Assembly: GCA_000004985.1 (NCBI GenBank)
Contig: GG739247.1
Direction: 5' to 3' (one strand)
Origin: Naegleria gruberi
Taxonomy: Eukaryota
Length of the DNA: 2,755 bases
Position 1 is the first letter of the stretch. Each line of letters starts with the position of its first letter. The translations under genes and the position numbers were made by a program. The notes under the pieces were generated by a model, which saw only the letters and a program-made list of their open reading frames with translations, had not been told where the DNA came from and ran no database searches. Positions 1 to 2,755 of the stretch are shown here, in pieces.

Positions 1-100
1 CATAATCTTCGGGAAATGAATTTGTGGTGGAGGCTATCAAAAGACAACTCTTTCCGACGGCGCCATCACCAACAACTACCAATTTCAAGCTATTGTCCAT
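1..100 (-). CDS. Rho/Rac-family small GTPase, N-terminal fragment (5' end of the gene; the CDS continues past the left edge of the window)
   Basis: The reverse complement of 1..100 reads ATG(100-98) GAC AAT AGC TTG AAA TTG GTA GTT GTT GGT GAT GGC GCC GTC GGA AAG AGT TGT CTT TTG ATA GCC TCC ACC ACA AAT TCA TTT CCC GAA GAT TAT g. This translates to [33 protein letters not shown]... It contains the P-loop/G1 box GDGAVGKS. It also shows the Rho-subfamily pattern [10 protein letters not shown][ST]CLLI..T.N.FP.(E/D)Y known from Rac/Cdc42 (established knowledge). The ATG has A at -3 and G at +4. Local GC (ggcgccgtcgg...) is visibly higher than in the flanking intergenic DNA. There is no in-frame stop before the window edge. 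At 33 codons it is below the ORF-track cut-off, which explains its absence from the track. Confidence 0.8.
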
Positions 101-704
101 TATTATGTACACGTTGATGTGAGTTTGTTATTTTTTTTTGATTTTGTTTTCAAAGTACCATTGAACAAGGAACTCTTACAAAAATTTGATTAATGATTAC
201 TTTATTCAGATTTAAGATCATAATTAAAATTCAAAAACAACTTTATTAGTAGGATAGTTTGTAAACTTCAATTTCTTCAACTTTGAATTTCAACAATCTA
301 TAAAAAAAATAGTCAACATTCTTCTACTCTAGGAGGACATGATGATTTTCGGAGTGGTTTTACATCATGAAACTACCAAACTTTCACAGCATCATCTCAA
401 CATCATCTAAATAGTAGTAATAGTAATAATTGTTTTTGGTGGATTATCATCATCATTTTGGAATTTATTTTTCATGATGGAAAATCACACGTTGATGTTT
501 AATCATCCGATCATTCACCTACCATCATCAATGTTGTTTTACATTAAAATAATAATAGTATTTGTGGAAATTAATTTTTAGCAATATAATTTTGGAGTCC
601 TTCTGAGTTCCAAATTTCTTCCTTTGTGGTAACAATTAATCAAAACTCAAACAAAATACCTTTAACTCTTCATCATCATCATATTGCAAAATAATTCCAC
701 AATC
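101..704. promoter_or_regulatory. Divergent (bidirectional) intergenic/promoter region between the start codons of the minus-strand GTPase gene and the plus-strand F-box/DUF4116 gene
   Basis: About 600 bp have no ORF of meaningful length on either strand. The region is very AT-rich and has homopolymer runs (T9 at 132-140, A8 at 302-309). The two flanking CDSs point away from each other. The TATA-like element and the CAT/ATG motif cluster listed separately lie inside it. Confidence 0.55.
299..310 (+). promoter_or_regulatory. TATA-like element TATAAAAAAAAT
   Basis: The exact string tataaaaaaaat is at 299-310. It lies ~395 nt upstream of the plus-strand ATG (705) and ~200 nt upstream of the minus-strand ATG (100). 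In an AT-rich intergenic region such a match can arise by chance, and its distance to either ATG is long for compact protist promoters. Confidence 0.2.
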
Positions 705-711
705 ATGATGG
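338..711. repeat. Cluster of short CAT/ATG trinucleotide tracts (CATCAT / ATGATG motifs), running up to and including the start-codon doublet
   Basis: Seen directly in the sequence: catgatgat 338-346; catcat 363-368; CATCATCT twice at 390-397 and 401-408; (ATC)3AT at 446-456; catgatg 473-479; atcatc 502-507; catcatcaATG 523-533; (CAT)4 at 671-682; catgatg 704-710. That is roughly ten occurrences of one hexamer family in ~370 bp, far more than an AT-rich background would give. Confidence 0.6.
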
Positions 712-2264
712 ATCAATTAAATATTGATATTCTCGGGTATGTGTTTGAATTTCTTCCGAGAGGAACAGACAGGAAGAGAATTGCATTGGTCAACAAGACT
801 TTTCACCATTCTAGATATGTGTTGGAGAAACGTGAAATGACTCGGATGTGGCATGATGAGAATAATTGTCTACAATATCACCCTCTCATGGAAGATGTGG
901 TGAGTGAAGAAGAATTGGAGAAGAAACAAGAAGAATTACAAATTGCCATACCTTTCCATTTGAAATTGTTTGTAACTGTCTTGACGAATGGTAGACAGCC
1001 ATGGTCTAATACTGTTGTGCATGTTAGTAATTTGTTGGGACCTGTCGAATCTTGGTTTTTGGACACACATAATGGTTTGGACACACAGAATGGTTATGCA
1101 ATCTTGGGAGTTGATACCCAATTATCTAACATATTAACATTGAGCAGAGATGGGAGGATTAGAGTGAATGGAGACACGGTTGACTTTTTTGAGTTTGTAA
1201 CGATGGTAAATCGTCCATTTAATCCAGAATTTTACAATTTTGAAAAGTTTAAAGAAAGAGTGTACTTCCCCTTCTCAATGACCAAGGAATATTATAGTAC
1301 GTTGCCAGACAAGTACAAATTTGTGGACAAGTTGACCATGCATGCTATTGAATTGGATCCAAAATGTTATGCATATGTTCCTGATTATATCAAGATGATG
1401 AGACATATTGCCAAGAAGGTATTCATTAGAAATCCATCCTTGGGCACATTAATTCCAAAAGAACTTTTGGAAGATACAGATTTTGTTATGGATGTTTACA
1501 AATCATCACAATCAATTCTGTTTTATGCTTCTCCAATAGGAAAATGGTGGAGTGATAGGGTTTTTATGATTGAGGCATTGAAGAGTGATGTATGTTTAAT
1601 AAGAAACTGTTCTGAGGAAATACGGACTGATAGAGAAATTATTGACATGATTATTGACATAGATGCAGCAAGTTCTTTTCAATATATTGGAAAATTCAAG
1701 GAAGATGAAGATATTGTGAAAAAGGCACTATTTAAATCAAACTTCACGATTCTACATTATATCAATAGTGATTTTCTGCTTAATAATAGAGAACTAGTTC
1801 TCACAATATTGAAAAGTAACGGAAAGTATATTAACGAAATGCCAGAGGCAATCCAAAAGGATAGAGAATGCTTTTTCCTAGCTGCAAGAACGCCTTATTT
1901 TACATCCAAAGTTCAATCTCTTTACAAAATAATAGAGAGTGACAGAGAGGATTTCAAATCAATTCTGCAATTTAATCCGGACCTTTTGGAGAAGACCATT
2001 TTCAAAGACGACAGAGAGCTTCTTAAAGAGGCTCTTTCACACTGTGGATTTTGTCTCAGATTTGCAAGTGAAGAATTCAAGGCAGATAAGGAACTTGTTT
2101 TGACAGCCGTAACAAAAAATGGATCTGCCCTTATGTATGCCTCTCCAAAACTCAAAGATTGTGAAGAGATTGTCTTGGCAGCTGTAACGAATGATGGAAA
2201 AGCAATTCGATTTGCTTCAAAGAGATTCTCGAATCAGAAAACTCTAAATTGTAATATTTATTAA
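705..2264 (+). CDS. F-box-like / DUF4116-repeat protein (519 aa from the first ATG). It is a candidate SCF E3 ubiquitin-ligase substrate-recognition subunit.
   Basis: Track ORF 684..2264 is one uninterrupted 1.58-kb frame, and the three antisense ORFs inside it are low-complexity. The track start at 684 is TTG, and the frame is open from 666. The first ATG is at 705 (ATGATGG, with A at -3), so I take it as the start for a eukaryotic gene. The stop is TAA at 2262-2264. The N-terminus QLNIDILGYVFEFLPRGTDRKRIALVNKTF fits the F-box pattern L[PN].[DE]IL..[IV]F..L....D...[IL]..V.K.[WF]. The C-terminal half has ~12 tandem ~25-aa units of the form [DE]-[ILV]-V-L-x-A-[VL]-x-+-[ND]-G-x-[AS]-L-+-[YF]-A-S-x-x-L-K-x-D-+-E. 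One example is ADKELVLTAVTKNGSALMYASPKLKDCEEIVLAAVTNDGKAIRFASKRF. This matches my recollection of the Pfam DUF4116 repeat (not HMM-verified). Confidence 0.85.
   Translation: MMDQLNIDILGYVFEFLPRGTDRKRIALVNKTFHHSRYVLEKREMTRMWHDENNCLQYHPLMEDVVSEEELEKKQEELQIAIPFHLKLFVTVLTNGRQPWSNTVVHVSNLLGPVESWFLDTHNGLDTQNGYAILGVDTQLSNILTLSRDGRIRVNGDTVDFFEFVTMVNRPFNPEFYNFEKFKERVYFPFSMTKEYYSTLPDKYKFVDKLTMHAIELDPKCYAYVPDYIKMMRHIAKKVFIRNPSLGTLIPKELLEDTDFVMDVYKSSQSILFYASPIGKWWSDRVFMIEALKSDVCLIRNCSEEIRTDREIIDMIIDIDAASSFQYIGKFKEDEDIVKKALFKSNFTILHYINSDFLLNNRELVLTILKSNGKYINEMPEAIQKDRECFFLAARTPYFTSKVQSLYKIIESDREDFKSILQFNPDLLEKTIFKDDRELLKEALSHCGFCLRFASEEFKADKELVLTAVTKNGSALMYASPKLKDCEEIVLAAVTNDGKAIRFASKRFSNQKTLNCNIY
714..830 (+). 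other. F-box-like motif (protein residues ~11-49 in track numbering)
   Basis: The residues are LNIDILGYVFEFLPRGTDRKRIALVNKTFHHSRYVLEK. The hydrophobic spacing and the IL..VF..L / LVNK.F positions match the F-box consensus LP.EIL..IF..L....DL....VCK.W. P is replaced by N at the LP position, which makes this a degenerate F-box-like motif of the kind common in protists. Confidence 0.5.
1059..1094 (+). repeat. In-frame 18-bp tandem duplication inside the CDS
   Basis: ttggacacacaTaatggt at 1059-1076 is followed directly by ttggacacacaGaatggt at 1077-1094, 17/18 identical. The pair encodes LDTHNG-LDTQNG (residues 126-137). A degenerate partial third copy (gaatcttggttt) precedes it. Confidence 0.8.
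1305..2243 (+). repeat. Protein-level tandem array of ~12 degenerate ~25-27-residue repeats (DUF4116-like), residues ~208-520
   Basis: The anchor pair x-E-[ILV] recurs at residues 292, 318, 343, 370, 395, 422, 445, 470 and 495, i.e. a period of 23-27 aa. The units are PDKYKFVDKLTMHAIELDPKCYAYV / PDYIKMM...KELLE / DTDFVMDVYKSSQSILFYASPIGKWWS / DRVFMIEALKSDVCLIRNCSEEIRT / DREIIDMIIDIDAASSFQYIGKFKEDE / DIVKKALFKSNFTILHYINSDFLLNNRE / LVLTILKSNGKYINEMPEAIQKDRE / CFFLAARTPYFTSKVQSLYKIIESDRE / DFKSILQFNPDLLEKTIFKDDRE / LLKEALSHCGFCLRFASEEFKADKE / LVLTAVTKNGSALMYASPKLKDCEE / IVLAAVTNDGKAIRFASKRFSNQKT. The last two units share 22 of the first 30 nucleotides. Confidence 0.6.
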
Positions 2265-2362
2265 CGTCTCTGGTCTACAATGAGTATACACATTTTGGCG
2301 ATCGACTATTGGCGAAAATTGCCACTTGAATTTTACGAATAGTTTCATTCGCTTAATGAAAT

Positions 2363-2374
2363 TGGAGATCTCCA
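2363..2374. repeat. 12-bp perfect palindrome TGGAGATCTCCA in the 3' flank
   Basis: tggagatctcca at 2363-2374 equals its own reverse complement. It lies ~100 nt after the stop codon. A small A/T hairpin lies just upstream (tttcatt 2343-2349 / aatgaaa 2355-2361). Confidence 0.7.
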
Positions 2375-2410
2375 GATGAAAATTGCGATTGCTTTTTTGA
2401 AAAAGAAACA

Positions 2411-2416
2411 AATAAA
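2411..2416 (+). promoter_or_regulatory. AATAAA hexamer, candidate poly(A) signal for the plus-strand gene
   Basis: aataaa lies at 2411-2416, ~147 nt downstream of the TAA stop. A second aataaa lies at 2630-2635, just after the terminator-like hairpin. In AT-rich DNA the hexamer is common by chance, and not all protists use it. Confidence 0.3.
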
Positions 2417-2590
2417 CCAAAATTCCAACATTTGTGGGATATTTGTTATTAAAATTATAGACCGTGGGAGGTGAGAAGGATTGACAAATATTTTTTTTAA
2501 AAATTTAGAAGTAATTCCCTAATGATTGGCTGAGGTCTGTGTTTGTAAAAAATCAAGGTGTTGAGTTTTGAGCATCGGTTTTGAACAAAT

Positions 2591-2628
2591 CAGGTCCTCG
2601 ATTTTTCGATTATCAGGACCTGTTTTTT
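2591..2628 (+). terminator. Hairpin with an 8-bp GC-containing stem and a T6 run (intrinsic-terminator-like shape), followed by AATAAA
   Basis: caggtcct at 2591-2598 pairs perfectly with aggacctg at 2615-2622. After one mismatch, three further A-T pairs are possible (2587-2589 with 2624-2626). The 16-nt loop cgatttttcgattatc contains a tcgatt direct repeat. A tttttt run at 2623-2628 follows immediately, then aataaa at 2630-2635. Any role in 3'-end formation is inferred only. Confidence 0.3.
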
Positions 2629-2675
2629 CAATAAATTAGGTATCAAGTTTTCAAAAATTTACTTTATTAAAATTT

Positions 2676-2706
2676 TACAAGTCGAAAAATGCAAAGTCGA
2701 CTTGTA
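2676..2706. repeat. Perfect 10-bp inverted repeat (hairpin) with an 11-nt loop
   Basis: tacaagtcga at 2676-2685 is the reverse complement of tcgacttgta at 2697-2706, and the loop is aaaatgcaaag. A second, bulged hairpin follows: tggaag 2711-2716 / cttcca 2734-2739, with an inner gtaa 2721-2724 / ttac 2730-2733. Confidence 0.7.
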
Positions 2707-2742
2707 CGTATGGAAGAATGGTAATAATCTTACCTTCCAACT

Positions 2743-2755
2743 GGGTTTGGGTTTG
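2743..2755. repeat. GGGTTT GGGTTT G at the right edge of the window (possible start of a G/T-rich tandem tract)
   Basis: gggtttgggtttg is at 2743-2755. Only two full units are visible before the window ends. Confidence 0.4.

What the first reader, a model, noticed from the sequence alone, without database searches (positions are those of the whole stretch)
1..100. Unannotated divergent gene: 5' end of a Rho/Rac-family GTPase on the minus strand, missed by the ORF track
The minus strand from the ATG at 100-98 reads [33 protein letters not shown] with no stop before the window edge. It contains the P-loop GDGAVGKS, and the flanking [14 protein letters not shown]...T.N.FP.(E/D)Y signature is specific to Rho-family (Rac/Cdc42-like) GTPases. 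The canonical ISYTTN segment is replaced by IASTTN, and the P-loop ends in S rather than T. That marks a divergent family member, as is common in protists with expanded Rho repertoires. This establishes a head-to-head gene pair (a GTPase signalling gene and a putative ubiquitin-ligase adaptor) sharing a ~600-bp promoter region.
Basis: partly seen in the sequence, partly recalled or inferred. Interest (0 to 1): 0.5.

Follow-up and report, generated by a model that had tools for sequence, protein, structure and literature searches.

The report
Truncated Rho-GTPase first exon, probably RhoBTB-type
The first 100 bases of this small Naegleria gruberi scaffold really do encode the start of a Rho-family GTPase gene cut off by the end of the assembly piece, most likely one of the large Rho+BTB ("RacA/RhoBTB") kind, and this is an ordinary finding in an amoeba with more than 80 Rho genes.

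Summary
**Observation confirmed.** The minus strand 100..1 reads [33 protein letters not shown]. It starts at the first ATG after an in-frame stop and runs open to the window edge.

**It is a real Rho-family exon.**
- Pfam Ras scores 31.6 bits (cut-off 21.6).
- All 60 best solved-structure matches are RhoG, Cdc42 or Rac.
- GC is 43%, against 21-34% in the upstream spacer.
- It is 91% identical in protein but 70% in DNA to a homologous exon from a metagenome.

**The "divergent" reading needs revision.** The P-loop serine (GKS) and "IA" are typical of RacA/RhoBTB-type proteins (Rho domain plus two BTB domains).
- 106 of 108 such proteins have GKS.
- All 7 GKS first exons whose downstream sequence could be read lead into BTB domains.
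- None of 78 readable GKT relatives does.
- Only the Tyr-to-Ser change (IASTTN) is unusual.

**Context.** RhoBTB-type genes and more than 80 Rho genes are already reported for N. gruberi (Herman et al. 2021).

**Not resolved.** I could not tell whether this copy is a new paralogue, an allele of an annotated gene, or a dead fragment.

**Verdict.** The head-to-head layout with the F-box-like/DUF4116 gene is real; a shared promoter is only inferred. Interest is low.

The parts
1..100 (-). Start of exon 1 of a Rho-family GTPase gene: codons 1-33 ([33 protein letters not shown]) plus the first base (G) of codon 34. It is cut by the end of the scaffold.
   Evidence: Translation. Pfam Ras 31.6 bits against a GA of 21.6. 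Top 60 PDB hits are all Rho family. 30/33 aa but 69/99 nt identical to the L001 exon. GC 43%.
98..100 (-). Initiator ATG
   Evidence: First ATG after the in-frame stop. It aligns with Met1 of P0044, P0045 and P0184.
128..130 (-). In-frame TAA stop that closes the frame 10 codons upstream of the ATG
47..70 (-). P-loop / G1 box GDGAVGKS (residues 11-18). Ser18 is the Mg2+-coordinating position, equivalent to Thr17 of Rac1 and Ser17 of Ras.
   Evidence: Read directly from the sequence. GKS is found in 106 of 108 Rho+BTB proteins. 122 of the 150 best-matching representatives have GKT.
29..31 (-). Codon 24, TCC = Ser, where relatives have Tyr (TAC/TAT); one base away from Tyr. It lies 29-31 bases from the scaffold end.
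   Evidence: In 108 BTB-type proteins this position is Tyr 99, Ala 6, and Thr, Arg and Cys once each, never Ser. Rare Ser cases exist elsewhere: P0173 IASATG and P0223 ITSTTN.
101..704 (.). AT-rich 604-bp spacer between the two divergent start codons; a candidate bidirectional promoter region.
   Evidence: GC 21-34%. No ORF of note. No Rfam match. Promoter function was not tested.
705..2264 (+). Neighbouring gene NAEGRDRAFT_82374: an F-box-like N-terminus plus six DUF4116 repeats. The public model starts only at Met45 (position 837).
   Evidence: Pfam DUF4116 161 bits in 6 stretches. F-box 15.5 bits, below the GA of 20.5. P0056 is listed at 475 aa on a contig of 2,755 bp.

Best explanation
Window 100..1 (minus strand) is the genuine first 33 codons of a Rho-family GTPase gene of Naegleria gruberi. 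It is truncated because the window is a complete 2,755-bp assembly scaffold that ends inside exon 1.

**What the fragment encodes.** It covers beta-strand 1, the phosphate-binding P-loop (GDGAVGKS) and helix alpha-1, up to the start of switch I. Ser18 occupies the Mg2+-coordinating position, which is Thr17 in Rac1 and Ser17 in Ras, so nucleotide binding is expected to be normal. That expectation rests on established GTPase structure.

**Most likely gene type (about 0.65-0.7).** The gene is probably of the RacA/RhoBTB type: a Rac-like GTPase domain, a proline-rich linker, two BTB domains and usually a C-terminal CxxX motif, about 590 aa in all. It is probably not a 190-aa CAAX Rac. In characterised relatives the GTPase domain binds Rac effectors (Dictyostelium RacA binds PAK and WASP), and the BTB domains recruit cullin-3 ubiquitin ligase. 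That is literature knowledge, not shown here.

**Shown:** the reading frame, family membership, the subfamily marker and the truncation by the scaffold end.

**Inferred:** the rest of the protein, its activity, and co-regulation with the divergent neighbour.
For: **Family.** Pfam Ras scores above its gathering cut-off. All 60 best PDB matches are RhoG, Cdc42, Rac or Entamoeba Rho.

**Real exon.** It is 30/33 aa but only 69/99 nt identical to the first exon of a metagenomic homologue, so most differences are synonymous. GC is exon-like. The start Met aligns with the homologues, and an in-frame stop lies upstream.

**Truncation.** Cluster member P0056 (XP_002668173.1, NAEGRDRAFT_82374), the public model of the neighbouring gene, is listed at 475 aa on a contig of 2,755 bp, which is the window length.

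**RhoBTB type.**
- The closest homologue, P0044 in L001, splices through a 36-nt GT..AG intron into a 587-aa protein with Ras 154 bits, BTB 109 bits in 2 stretches, and a C-terminal CCIM.
- The best full-N-terminus match among 1.84e9 representatives, P0184 (82% identity), is Ras+BTB.
- 106 of 108 full-length Rho+BTB proteins have GKS.
- All 7 GKS first exons with readable downstream sequence lead into BTB: L001, L002/L003, L004, L009, P0184, P0216 and P0090.
- 0 of 78 readable GKT relatives do; they end soon after the GTPase domain, many in CxxX.

**Literature.** RhoBTB-type genes are reported in N. gruberi and N. fowleri (Herman et al. 2021, PMC8296547, Suppl. Material 4 and Table S8).
Against: - Only 33 codons exist here. 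No G2-G5 box, Rho insert or BTB domain can be seen.
- The GKS-to-BTB rule was derived from non-Naegleria sequences that are related to one another, so the counts are not independent events. Only 7 GKS cases could be read through.
- N. gruberi has more than 80 often aberrant Rho genes, and a small Rho with GKS there cannot be excluded.
- No Naegleria protein appeared among the 120 best hits of the RhoBTB-type probe.
- The N-terminal string is absent from the sequences printed in the curated census.
- Ser at position 24 is not seen in any of 108 BTB-type proteins. It could be a sequencing error near the scaffold end or a sign of decay.
Confidence: 0.68

Rival explanations
1. It is the first exon of an ordinary stand-alone Rac/Cdc42-like small GTPase (about 190-200 aa, polybasic tail and CAAX box), one of the many lineage-specific Rho paralogues of N. 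gruberi. This is what the first reader proposed.
For: The best solved-structure matches are small RhoG, Cdc42 and Rac. 122 of the 150 best representative matches are of GKT type, and the readable ones are small GTPases. Short GKT fragments such as P0188 reach 87% identity. Most of the more than 80 N. gruberi Rho genes are listed as Rac, and only 4 as RhoBTB.
Against: The fragment has GKS, not GKT. No readable GKS relative was a small GTPase (0 of 7), and 106 of 108 BTB-type proteins have GKS. The three relatives with the best full-length N-terminal match are L001/P0044 at 91%, P0045 at 85% and P0184 at 82%, and all are Rho+BTB. None of the N. gruberi Rac sequences printed in Table S8 part 4 has GKS in the P-loop.
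Confidence: 0.22
2. Whatever its subfamily, this copy is not a working gene. It could be a truncated duplicate or pseudogene fragment carried along with a recently duplicated F-box/DUF4116 gene. It could also be a redundant haplotype piece (haplotig) of a locus assembled elsewhere, in which case nothing new is encoded.
For: The neighbouring gene belongs to a cluster of five N. gruberi proteins at >= 90% identity, on scaffolds of 2.7, 8.7, 195, 236 and 259 kb. The 195-kb copy (P0001) shows one amino-acid difference (Glu for Asp) from the window's ORF over the 475 residues they share. The scaffold is tiny and ends inside the exon. The conserved Tyr24 is replaced by Ser. The census lists several Rho pseudogenes, including one RhoBTB, XP_002672175.1.
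Against: The frame is open from the ATG to the edge, with no frameshift. 30 of 33 residues match functional homologues, with mostly synonymous DNA differences. All P-loop residues are intact. If XP accessions follow gene order along a scaffold, which I assumed but did not verify, the neighbours of the paralogous copies (XP_002669082/84, XP_002671095/97) are not listed as GTPases in the census. That argues against a simple allelic relationship in which the partner is already annotated.
Confidence: 0.3
3. It is a chance open frame in AT-rich DNA that happens to resemble a P-loop.
For: Only 33 codons are available, and P-loop-like strings are common.
Against: Pfam E = 1.4e-7. PDB E = 3e-10, with 30 aligned residues matching Rho proteins specifically. 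E = 1.3e-8 against a 1.84-billion-protein library for a full-length N-terminal match. GC jumps from about 25% to 43% exactly over the frame. The pattern of synonymous substitution against L001 also argues against chance.
Confidence: 0.01

Closest known systems
RacA / 'racA-like' RhoBTB-type GTPases (Dictyostelium discoideum RacA; Acrasis kona 'Rho-related protein RAC' P0070; many invertebrate racA-like proteins)
   Same: N-terminal signature [16 protein letters not shown][AS]YTTN.FP..Y with Ser in the P-loop. The closest homologues of the fragment (P0044/L001, P0045, P0184) have this Rho + 2xBTB architecture.
   Different: Only 33 residues are available, so no BTB domain can be shown. Tyr24 is replaced by Ser. 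Dictyostelium RacA is reported to lack a CAAX motif (PMC8305917), whereas 91 of 102 BTB-type hits here, including L001, end in CxxX.
N. gruberi RhoBTB genes catalogued by Herman et al. 2021 (XP_002670692.1, XP_002678166.1, XP_002670302.1, XP_002672175.1)
   Same: Same organism and the same reported family. XP_002670692.1 is marked as having orthologues outside Heterolobosea.
   Different: The two whose sequences are printed have quite different P-loops (GDIGCGKT, GDEGVGKQ). The other two are given by accession only and could not be fetched, so identity or allelism with the fragment is untested.
Classical small Rho GTPases Rac1/2/3, RhoG, Cdc42
   Same: 21-23 of 30 aligned residues are identical, and these are the best solved-structure matches. 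The P-loop and alpha-1 layout is the same.
   Different: They carry Thr (GKT) where the fragment has Ser, and 'IS/IC' where it has 'IA'. They end about 190 aa in with a CAAX box. None of 78 readable GKT relatives carries BTB domains.
Vertebrate RhoBTB1-3
   Same: Same general idea of a Rho-like domain fused to tandem BTB domains that recruit cullin-3 (literature; PMC8305917).
   Different: By my own recollection, vertebrate RhoBTB GTPase domains are much more divergent (RhoBTB3 barely Rho-like) and do not share the [12 protein letters not shown] signature. This was not tested here.

Membership tests
Ras-superfamily small GTPase (Pfam PF00071) | G1 / P-loop GxxxxGK[ST] following a hydrophobic beta-strand | tested here: met
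   [14 protein letters not shown]. Pfam Ras 31.6 bits against a gathering score of 21.6; residues 6-33 match profile positions 1-28 of 162.
Ras-superfamily small GTPase (Pfam PF00071) | G2 (switch I Thr), G3 DxxG, G4 [NT]KxD, G5 SA[KR] | not testable with these tools
   The scaffold ends at codon 33. No other copy of the locus could be retrieved.
Rho family | The N-terminal region resembles Rho proteins more than Ras, Rab, Ran or Arf | tested here: met
   All 60 best PDB sequences are RhoG, Cdc42, Rac or Entamoeba Rho. All close database relatives are Rho family.
Rho family | Rho insert helix between G4 and G5 | not testable with these tools
   It lies beyond the scaffold end.
RacA/RhoBTB-type (Rho + tandem BTB) | Tandem BTB domains C-terminal to the GTPase domain | not testable with these tools
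   Beyond the scaffold end. Present in the closest homologues L001, L002/L003, L004, L009, P0184, P0216 and P0090.
RacA/RhoBTB-type (Rho + tandem BTB) | Empirical marker derived here: Ser in the P-loop (GKS) within a Rac-like VGDGAVGK context | tested here: met
   The fragment has GKS. 106 of 108 BTB-type proteins have GKS. 7 of 7 readable GKS exons lead to BTB, against 0 of 78 readable GKT relatives.
RacA/RhoBTB-type (Rho + tandem BTB) | Conserved Tyr at the position equivalent to Rac1 Tyr23 | tested here: not met
   The fragment has Ser24. Tyr occurs in 99 of 108 BTB-type proteins and Ser in none. The position does tolerate Ala, Thr, Arg and Cys, and Ser occurs in P0173 and P0223. This is not a family-defining residue.
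Classical Rac/Cdc42 small GTPase | Thr17 in the P-loop (GKT) and ISYTTN | tested here: not met
   The fragment has GKS and IASTTN. All readable small relatives have GKT.
Classical Rac/Cdc42 small GTPase | About 190 aa, ending in a polybasic region plus CAAX directly after the GTPase domain | not testable with these tools
   Beyond the scaffold end.
Divergent (head-to-head) gene pair with a bidirectional promoter | Two start codons on opposite strands facing away from each other across a short spacer | tested here: met
   ATG at 100-98 (minus strand) and ATG at 705 (plus strand), with a 604-bp AT-rich spacer.
Divergent (head-to-head) gene pair with a bidirectional promoter | Co-regulation from shared promoter elements | not testable with these tools
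   No expression data. The arrangement is not conserved in L001, where the upstream gene lies on the same strand.
F-box protein (the neighbour, called a 'ubiquitin-ligase adaptor') | F-box domain at the Pfam gathering threshold | tested here: inconclusive
   PF00646 scores 15.5 bits (E = 0.016) on residues 3-35, below the GA of 20.5. The relative P0033 passes at 33.7 bits, and the N. lovaniensis homologue P0022 is named an F-box protein.

The most novel reading that the evidence does not exclude
The fragment could be the start of a RacA/RhoBTB-type paralogue of N. gruberi that is absent from both the original annotation and the 2021 curated census. It would lie head-to-head with an F-box/DUF4116 gene. 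If so, two different cullin-RING ligase substrate adaptors (BTB for Cul3, F-box for Cul1) would be driven from one 600-bp bidirectional promoter and duplicated together as a unit.
Probability: 0.15. Interest if true: 0.3.

Novelty: new member of a known kind. Interest (0 to 1): 0.15.

Why it matters
It matters little beyond annotation hygiene. The result shows that a tiny N. gruberi scaffold carries the start of a Rho-family gene that gene callers skip because it runs off the end. The curated count of Rho/RhoBTB genes in this organism may therefore miss or double-count such edge fragments.

One by-product is practical. In Rac-like N-termini, a P-loop Ser (GKS) rather than Thr predicts the Rho+BTB architecture very well (7 of 7 against 0 of 78 readable cases). 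This could help classify the many first-exon fragments found in protist and metagenome assemblies.

Tried and rejected
**Extending the locus failed by every route.**
- Exact-protein look-ups found nothing for the neighbouring ORF (519 aa and 475 aa versions) or its paralogues P0001 and P0053.
- An exact 26-mer from the exon had no match in metagenome contigs.
- The 33-aa fragment is too short for the search for homologous proteins and the search for related loci. I used window:1-121 (40 aa, including 7 non-coding codons) and then an alignment instead.

**A chimeric probe did not retrieve a Naegleria protein.** The probe joined the window's 33 aa to L001 residues 34-587. None of the top 120 hits was from Naegleria.

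**The curated census could not identify the gene.**
- In Herman et al. 2021 Table S8, the fragment's strings are absent from all printed sequences.
- The accession neighbours of the three paralogous DUF4116 genes are not listed as GTPases.
- Most entries are accession-only and could not be fetched.

**A log-odds classifier was discarded.** The first non-BTB control set had only 4 unique sequences. I replaced it with direct architecture counts.

**One apparent counter-example was rejected.** L023 has GKS and was first classed 'small'. On inspection its stop follows ...HRTKRY with no Cys and only about 200 nt of contig left, so it is most likely an exon boundary. L016 is unreadable because of a 1.6-kb intron and the contig end.

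**Negative checks.** Rfam found nothing. The repeat search found nothing relevant to the fragment. The gene upstream of the L001 homologue has no significant Pfam domain, so no conserved F-box/Rho neighbourhood can be claimed.

Full report
**1. The observation.**
- The reverse complement of window 1-100 translates without a stop to [33 protein letters not shown].
- The ATG is at 100-98. An in-frame TAA lies ten codons upstream at 130-128, so this is the first ATG of the frame.
- The single leftover base at position 1 is a G on the minus strand, which fits the Val that follows in every homologue (...DYVPTVFDNY).
- The ORF list omits the frame only because ORFs that run off an end of the source are not listed.
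- The frame is not a chance product. Pfam Ras scores 31.6 bits against a gathering score of 21.6, E = 1.4e-7. phmmer against all PDB sequences gives E = 3e-10. A search of 1.84 billion representative proteins gives 1,356 hits at E <= 1e-3.
- GC is 43% over 1-100, against 21-34% in the 600 bp upstream.

**2. Where the window comes from.**
- The large ORF at 705-2264 is 100% identical over its aligned region to a Naegleria gruberi predicted protein.
- A cluster look-up lists XP_002668173.1 / NAEGRDRAFT_82374 (475 aa), the public model of this gene, on a contig of 2,755 bp, exactly the window length. The window is therefore a whole small scaffold, and the GTPase frame is cut by the end of the assembly piece.
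- I tried to reach near-identical copies of the neighbouring gene on scaffolds of 195 kb and 259 kb (P0001, P0053) and the window's own models. None is in the positional index.
- An exact 26-mer from the exon is absent from the metagenome collection.

**3. Family.**
- All 60 best solved-structure matches are Rho-family proteins: RhoG, Cdc42, Rac1/3 and an Entamoeba Rho.
- Every close database relative is Rho family. Rho-family membership of the fragment is secure as far as 33 residues can show.
- The G2-G5 boxes and the Rho insert lie beyond the scaffold end and are untestable.

**4. Which kind of Rho.**
- The closest relative is P0044, 91% identical over the 33 residues. It is a first exon on a 15.6-kb metagenome contig (L001).
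- The next called product downstream carries Ras and BTB domains.
- Read directly, the gene splices through a 36-nt GT..AG intron into a 587-aa protein. It has DTAGQE, TKTD and ETSAR boxes, Pfam Ras at 154 bits, BTB at 109 bits in two stretches, and a C-terminal CCIM.
- Fragment and homologue share 30 of 33 residues but only 69 of 99 nucleotides. Most differences are synonymous, as expected of a coding exon under purifying selection.
- A probe made of the window's 33 residues plus the homologue's residues 34-587 retrieved 120 top hits that are almost all Rho+BTB proteins. These included Dictyostelid RacA orthologues, the heterolobosean Acrasis kona, and many invertebrate 'racA-like' proteins.
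- Reading those sequences showed that they carry GKS in the P-loop, as the fragment does, whereas the non-BTB Rac/Cdc42 hits carry GKT.

**5. Testing the GKS marker.**
- *Full-length BTB-type proteins.* Among 108, 106 have GKS and 2 have GKT. Position 23 is Ser in 65 and Ala in 32. Position 24 is Tyr in 99 and never Ser.
- *Unbiased search.* In the search of the 33 residues against all representatives, 122 of the top 150 have GKT and 28 have GKS. The best match over the complete N-terminus, P0184 (82%), is Ras+BTB by Pfam.
- *Other first-exon fragments.* P0045 leads into GTPase+BTB+BTB (L002/L003). P0048 leads into a tandem Rho-Rho-BTB protein (L004). The GKT control P0052 ends ...KKKKQSNQCVIL-stop directly after the GTPase domain (L005).
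- *Attempted refutation.* I scanned metagenome contigs with a pattern that does not specify Ser or Thr (VGDGAVGK) and obtained 80 loci. Of 77 GKT loci, 66 are small GTPases that stop soon after the domain, 11 are unreadable, and none has BTB. Of 3 GKS loci, one has BTB and two are unreadable on inspection.
- *Totals.* 7 of 7 readable GKS cases lead into BTB-containing proteins, against 0 of 78 readable GKT cases.
- *Caveat.* These sequences are related to one another, so the counts are not independent events, and none is from Naegleria.

**6.
- The P-loop Ser and the 'IA' are not signs of a divergent Rac. They are the normal state of the RacA/RhoBTB subfamily.
- Only Tyr24-to-Ser is unusual. 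It is one base from Tyr (TCC against TAC) and lies 29-31 bases from the scaffold end.
- It may be a true substitution, a base-calling error, or a hint of relaxed constraint. Rare relatives also have Ser there (P0173, P0223).
- The expected product is about 590 aa with two BTB domains.

**7. What is already known.**
- Herman et al. 2021 (PMC8296547) re-annotated the Ras superfamily of N. gruberi. They report more than 80 Rho-family genes, including the RhoBTB type, and many Rho domains fused to F-box, Kelch or BTB domains. They state that many models were wrong or missing.
- Four N. gruberi RhoBTB entries are listed. One (XP_002670692.1) has orthologues outside Heterolobosea, and one (XP_002672175.1) is a putative pseudogene.
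- The fragment's strings do not occur in any sequence printed there, but accession-only rows carry no sequence.
- If XP accessions follow gene order along a scaffold, which I assumed but did not verify, the neighbours of the paralogous DUF4116 genes are not listed as GTPases.
- I therefore cannot say whether the fragment is an uncatalogued paralogue, an allele or haplotig of a listed gene, or a dead duplicate.

**8. Surroundings.**
- The neighbour on the plus strand has six DUF4116 repeats at 161 bits. Its N-terminus resembles an F-box but scores below threshold, at 15.5 bits against 20.5.
- The public model starts only at Met45 (position 837) and so omits that N-terminus.
- The two start codons face away from each other across 604 bp of AT-rich DNA. 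The head-to-head layout is real.
- A shared promoter is inference only. The layout is not conserved at the homologous metagenomic locus.
- The neighbour belongs to a cluster of five N. gruberi proteins at >= 90% identity on five scaffolds. This fits recent duplication or separately assembled haplotypes, and it keeps the pseudogene/haplotig rival alive.

**9. Verdict.**
- This is a real, correctly read, correctly oriented 5' end of a Rho-family GTPase gene.
- It is probably RacA/RhoBTB-type (about 0.65-0.7) rather than a small Rac (about 0.2).
- It is truncated by the scaffold end, and its functional status is unknown.
- It belongs to a family already documented in this organism and is of low interest.
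- The only generalisable by-product is the GKS marker for Rho+BTB architecture.

Noticed in passing
window 705-2264 (+), especially 705-836: The public gene model NAEGRDRAFT_82374 (475 aa) starts at Met45 (position 837). The ORF is open from the ATG at 705, and the extra 44 residues carry an F-box-like motif (LNIDILGYVFEFLP...ALVNKTF; PF00646 15.5 bits, below threshold). The model probably lacks its true N-terminus.
   Followed up: partly
window 705-2264 (+), with P0001, P0053, P0054, P0055 and P0056: The DUF4116 gene has four near-identical (>= 90%) relatives in the N. gruberi proteome, on scaffolds of 8.7, 195, 236 and 259 kb. The 195-kb copy shows one amino-acid difference from the window's ORF over the 475 residues they share. 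This points to a recent gene-family expansion or to separately assembled haplotypes.
   Followed up: partly
window 1058-1093 (+): A perfect-register 18-nt tandem duplication (TTTGGACACACATAATGG / TTTGGACACACAGAATGG) lies inside the DUF4116 gene and encodes a repeated LDT(H/Q)NG motif.
   Followed up: no
window 2265-2755: The 490-bp 3' flank has no convincing ORF and no Rfam match. It contains two short hairpin-like palindromes: CAGGTCCT...AGGACCTG at about 2590-2622, followed by a T-run and AATAAA, and CAAGTCGA...TCGACTTG at about 2679-2705. These may be 3'-end signals.
   Followed up: no
L004 253-2900: This metagenome contig encodes an unusual tandem architecture. Two Rac-like GTPase domains, both with GKS, lie in one open frame and are followed by BTB-region homology (Rho-Rho-BTB).
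   Followed up: partly
L001 4406-6205: The closest homologue is a 587-aa Rho + 2xBTB protein with a very short (36-nt) GT..AG intron after codon 59 and a C-terminal CCIM. 91 of 102 BTB-type proteins retrieved end in CxxX, although Dictyostelium RacA is described as lacking a CAAX motif.
   Followed up: partly
one search hit list (for example P0062, P0065, P0066, P0067, P0069): Many amoebozoan or protist RacA-type proteins carry a U-box or RING domain inserted between the two BTB domains (Pfam PF04564 / PF13920). This places an E3-ligase domain inside a presumed Cul3-adaptor scaffold.
   Followed up: no
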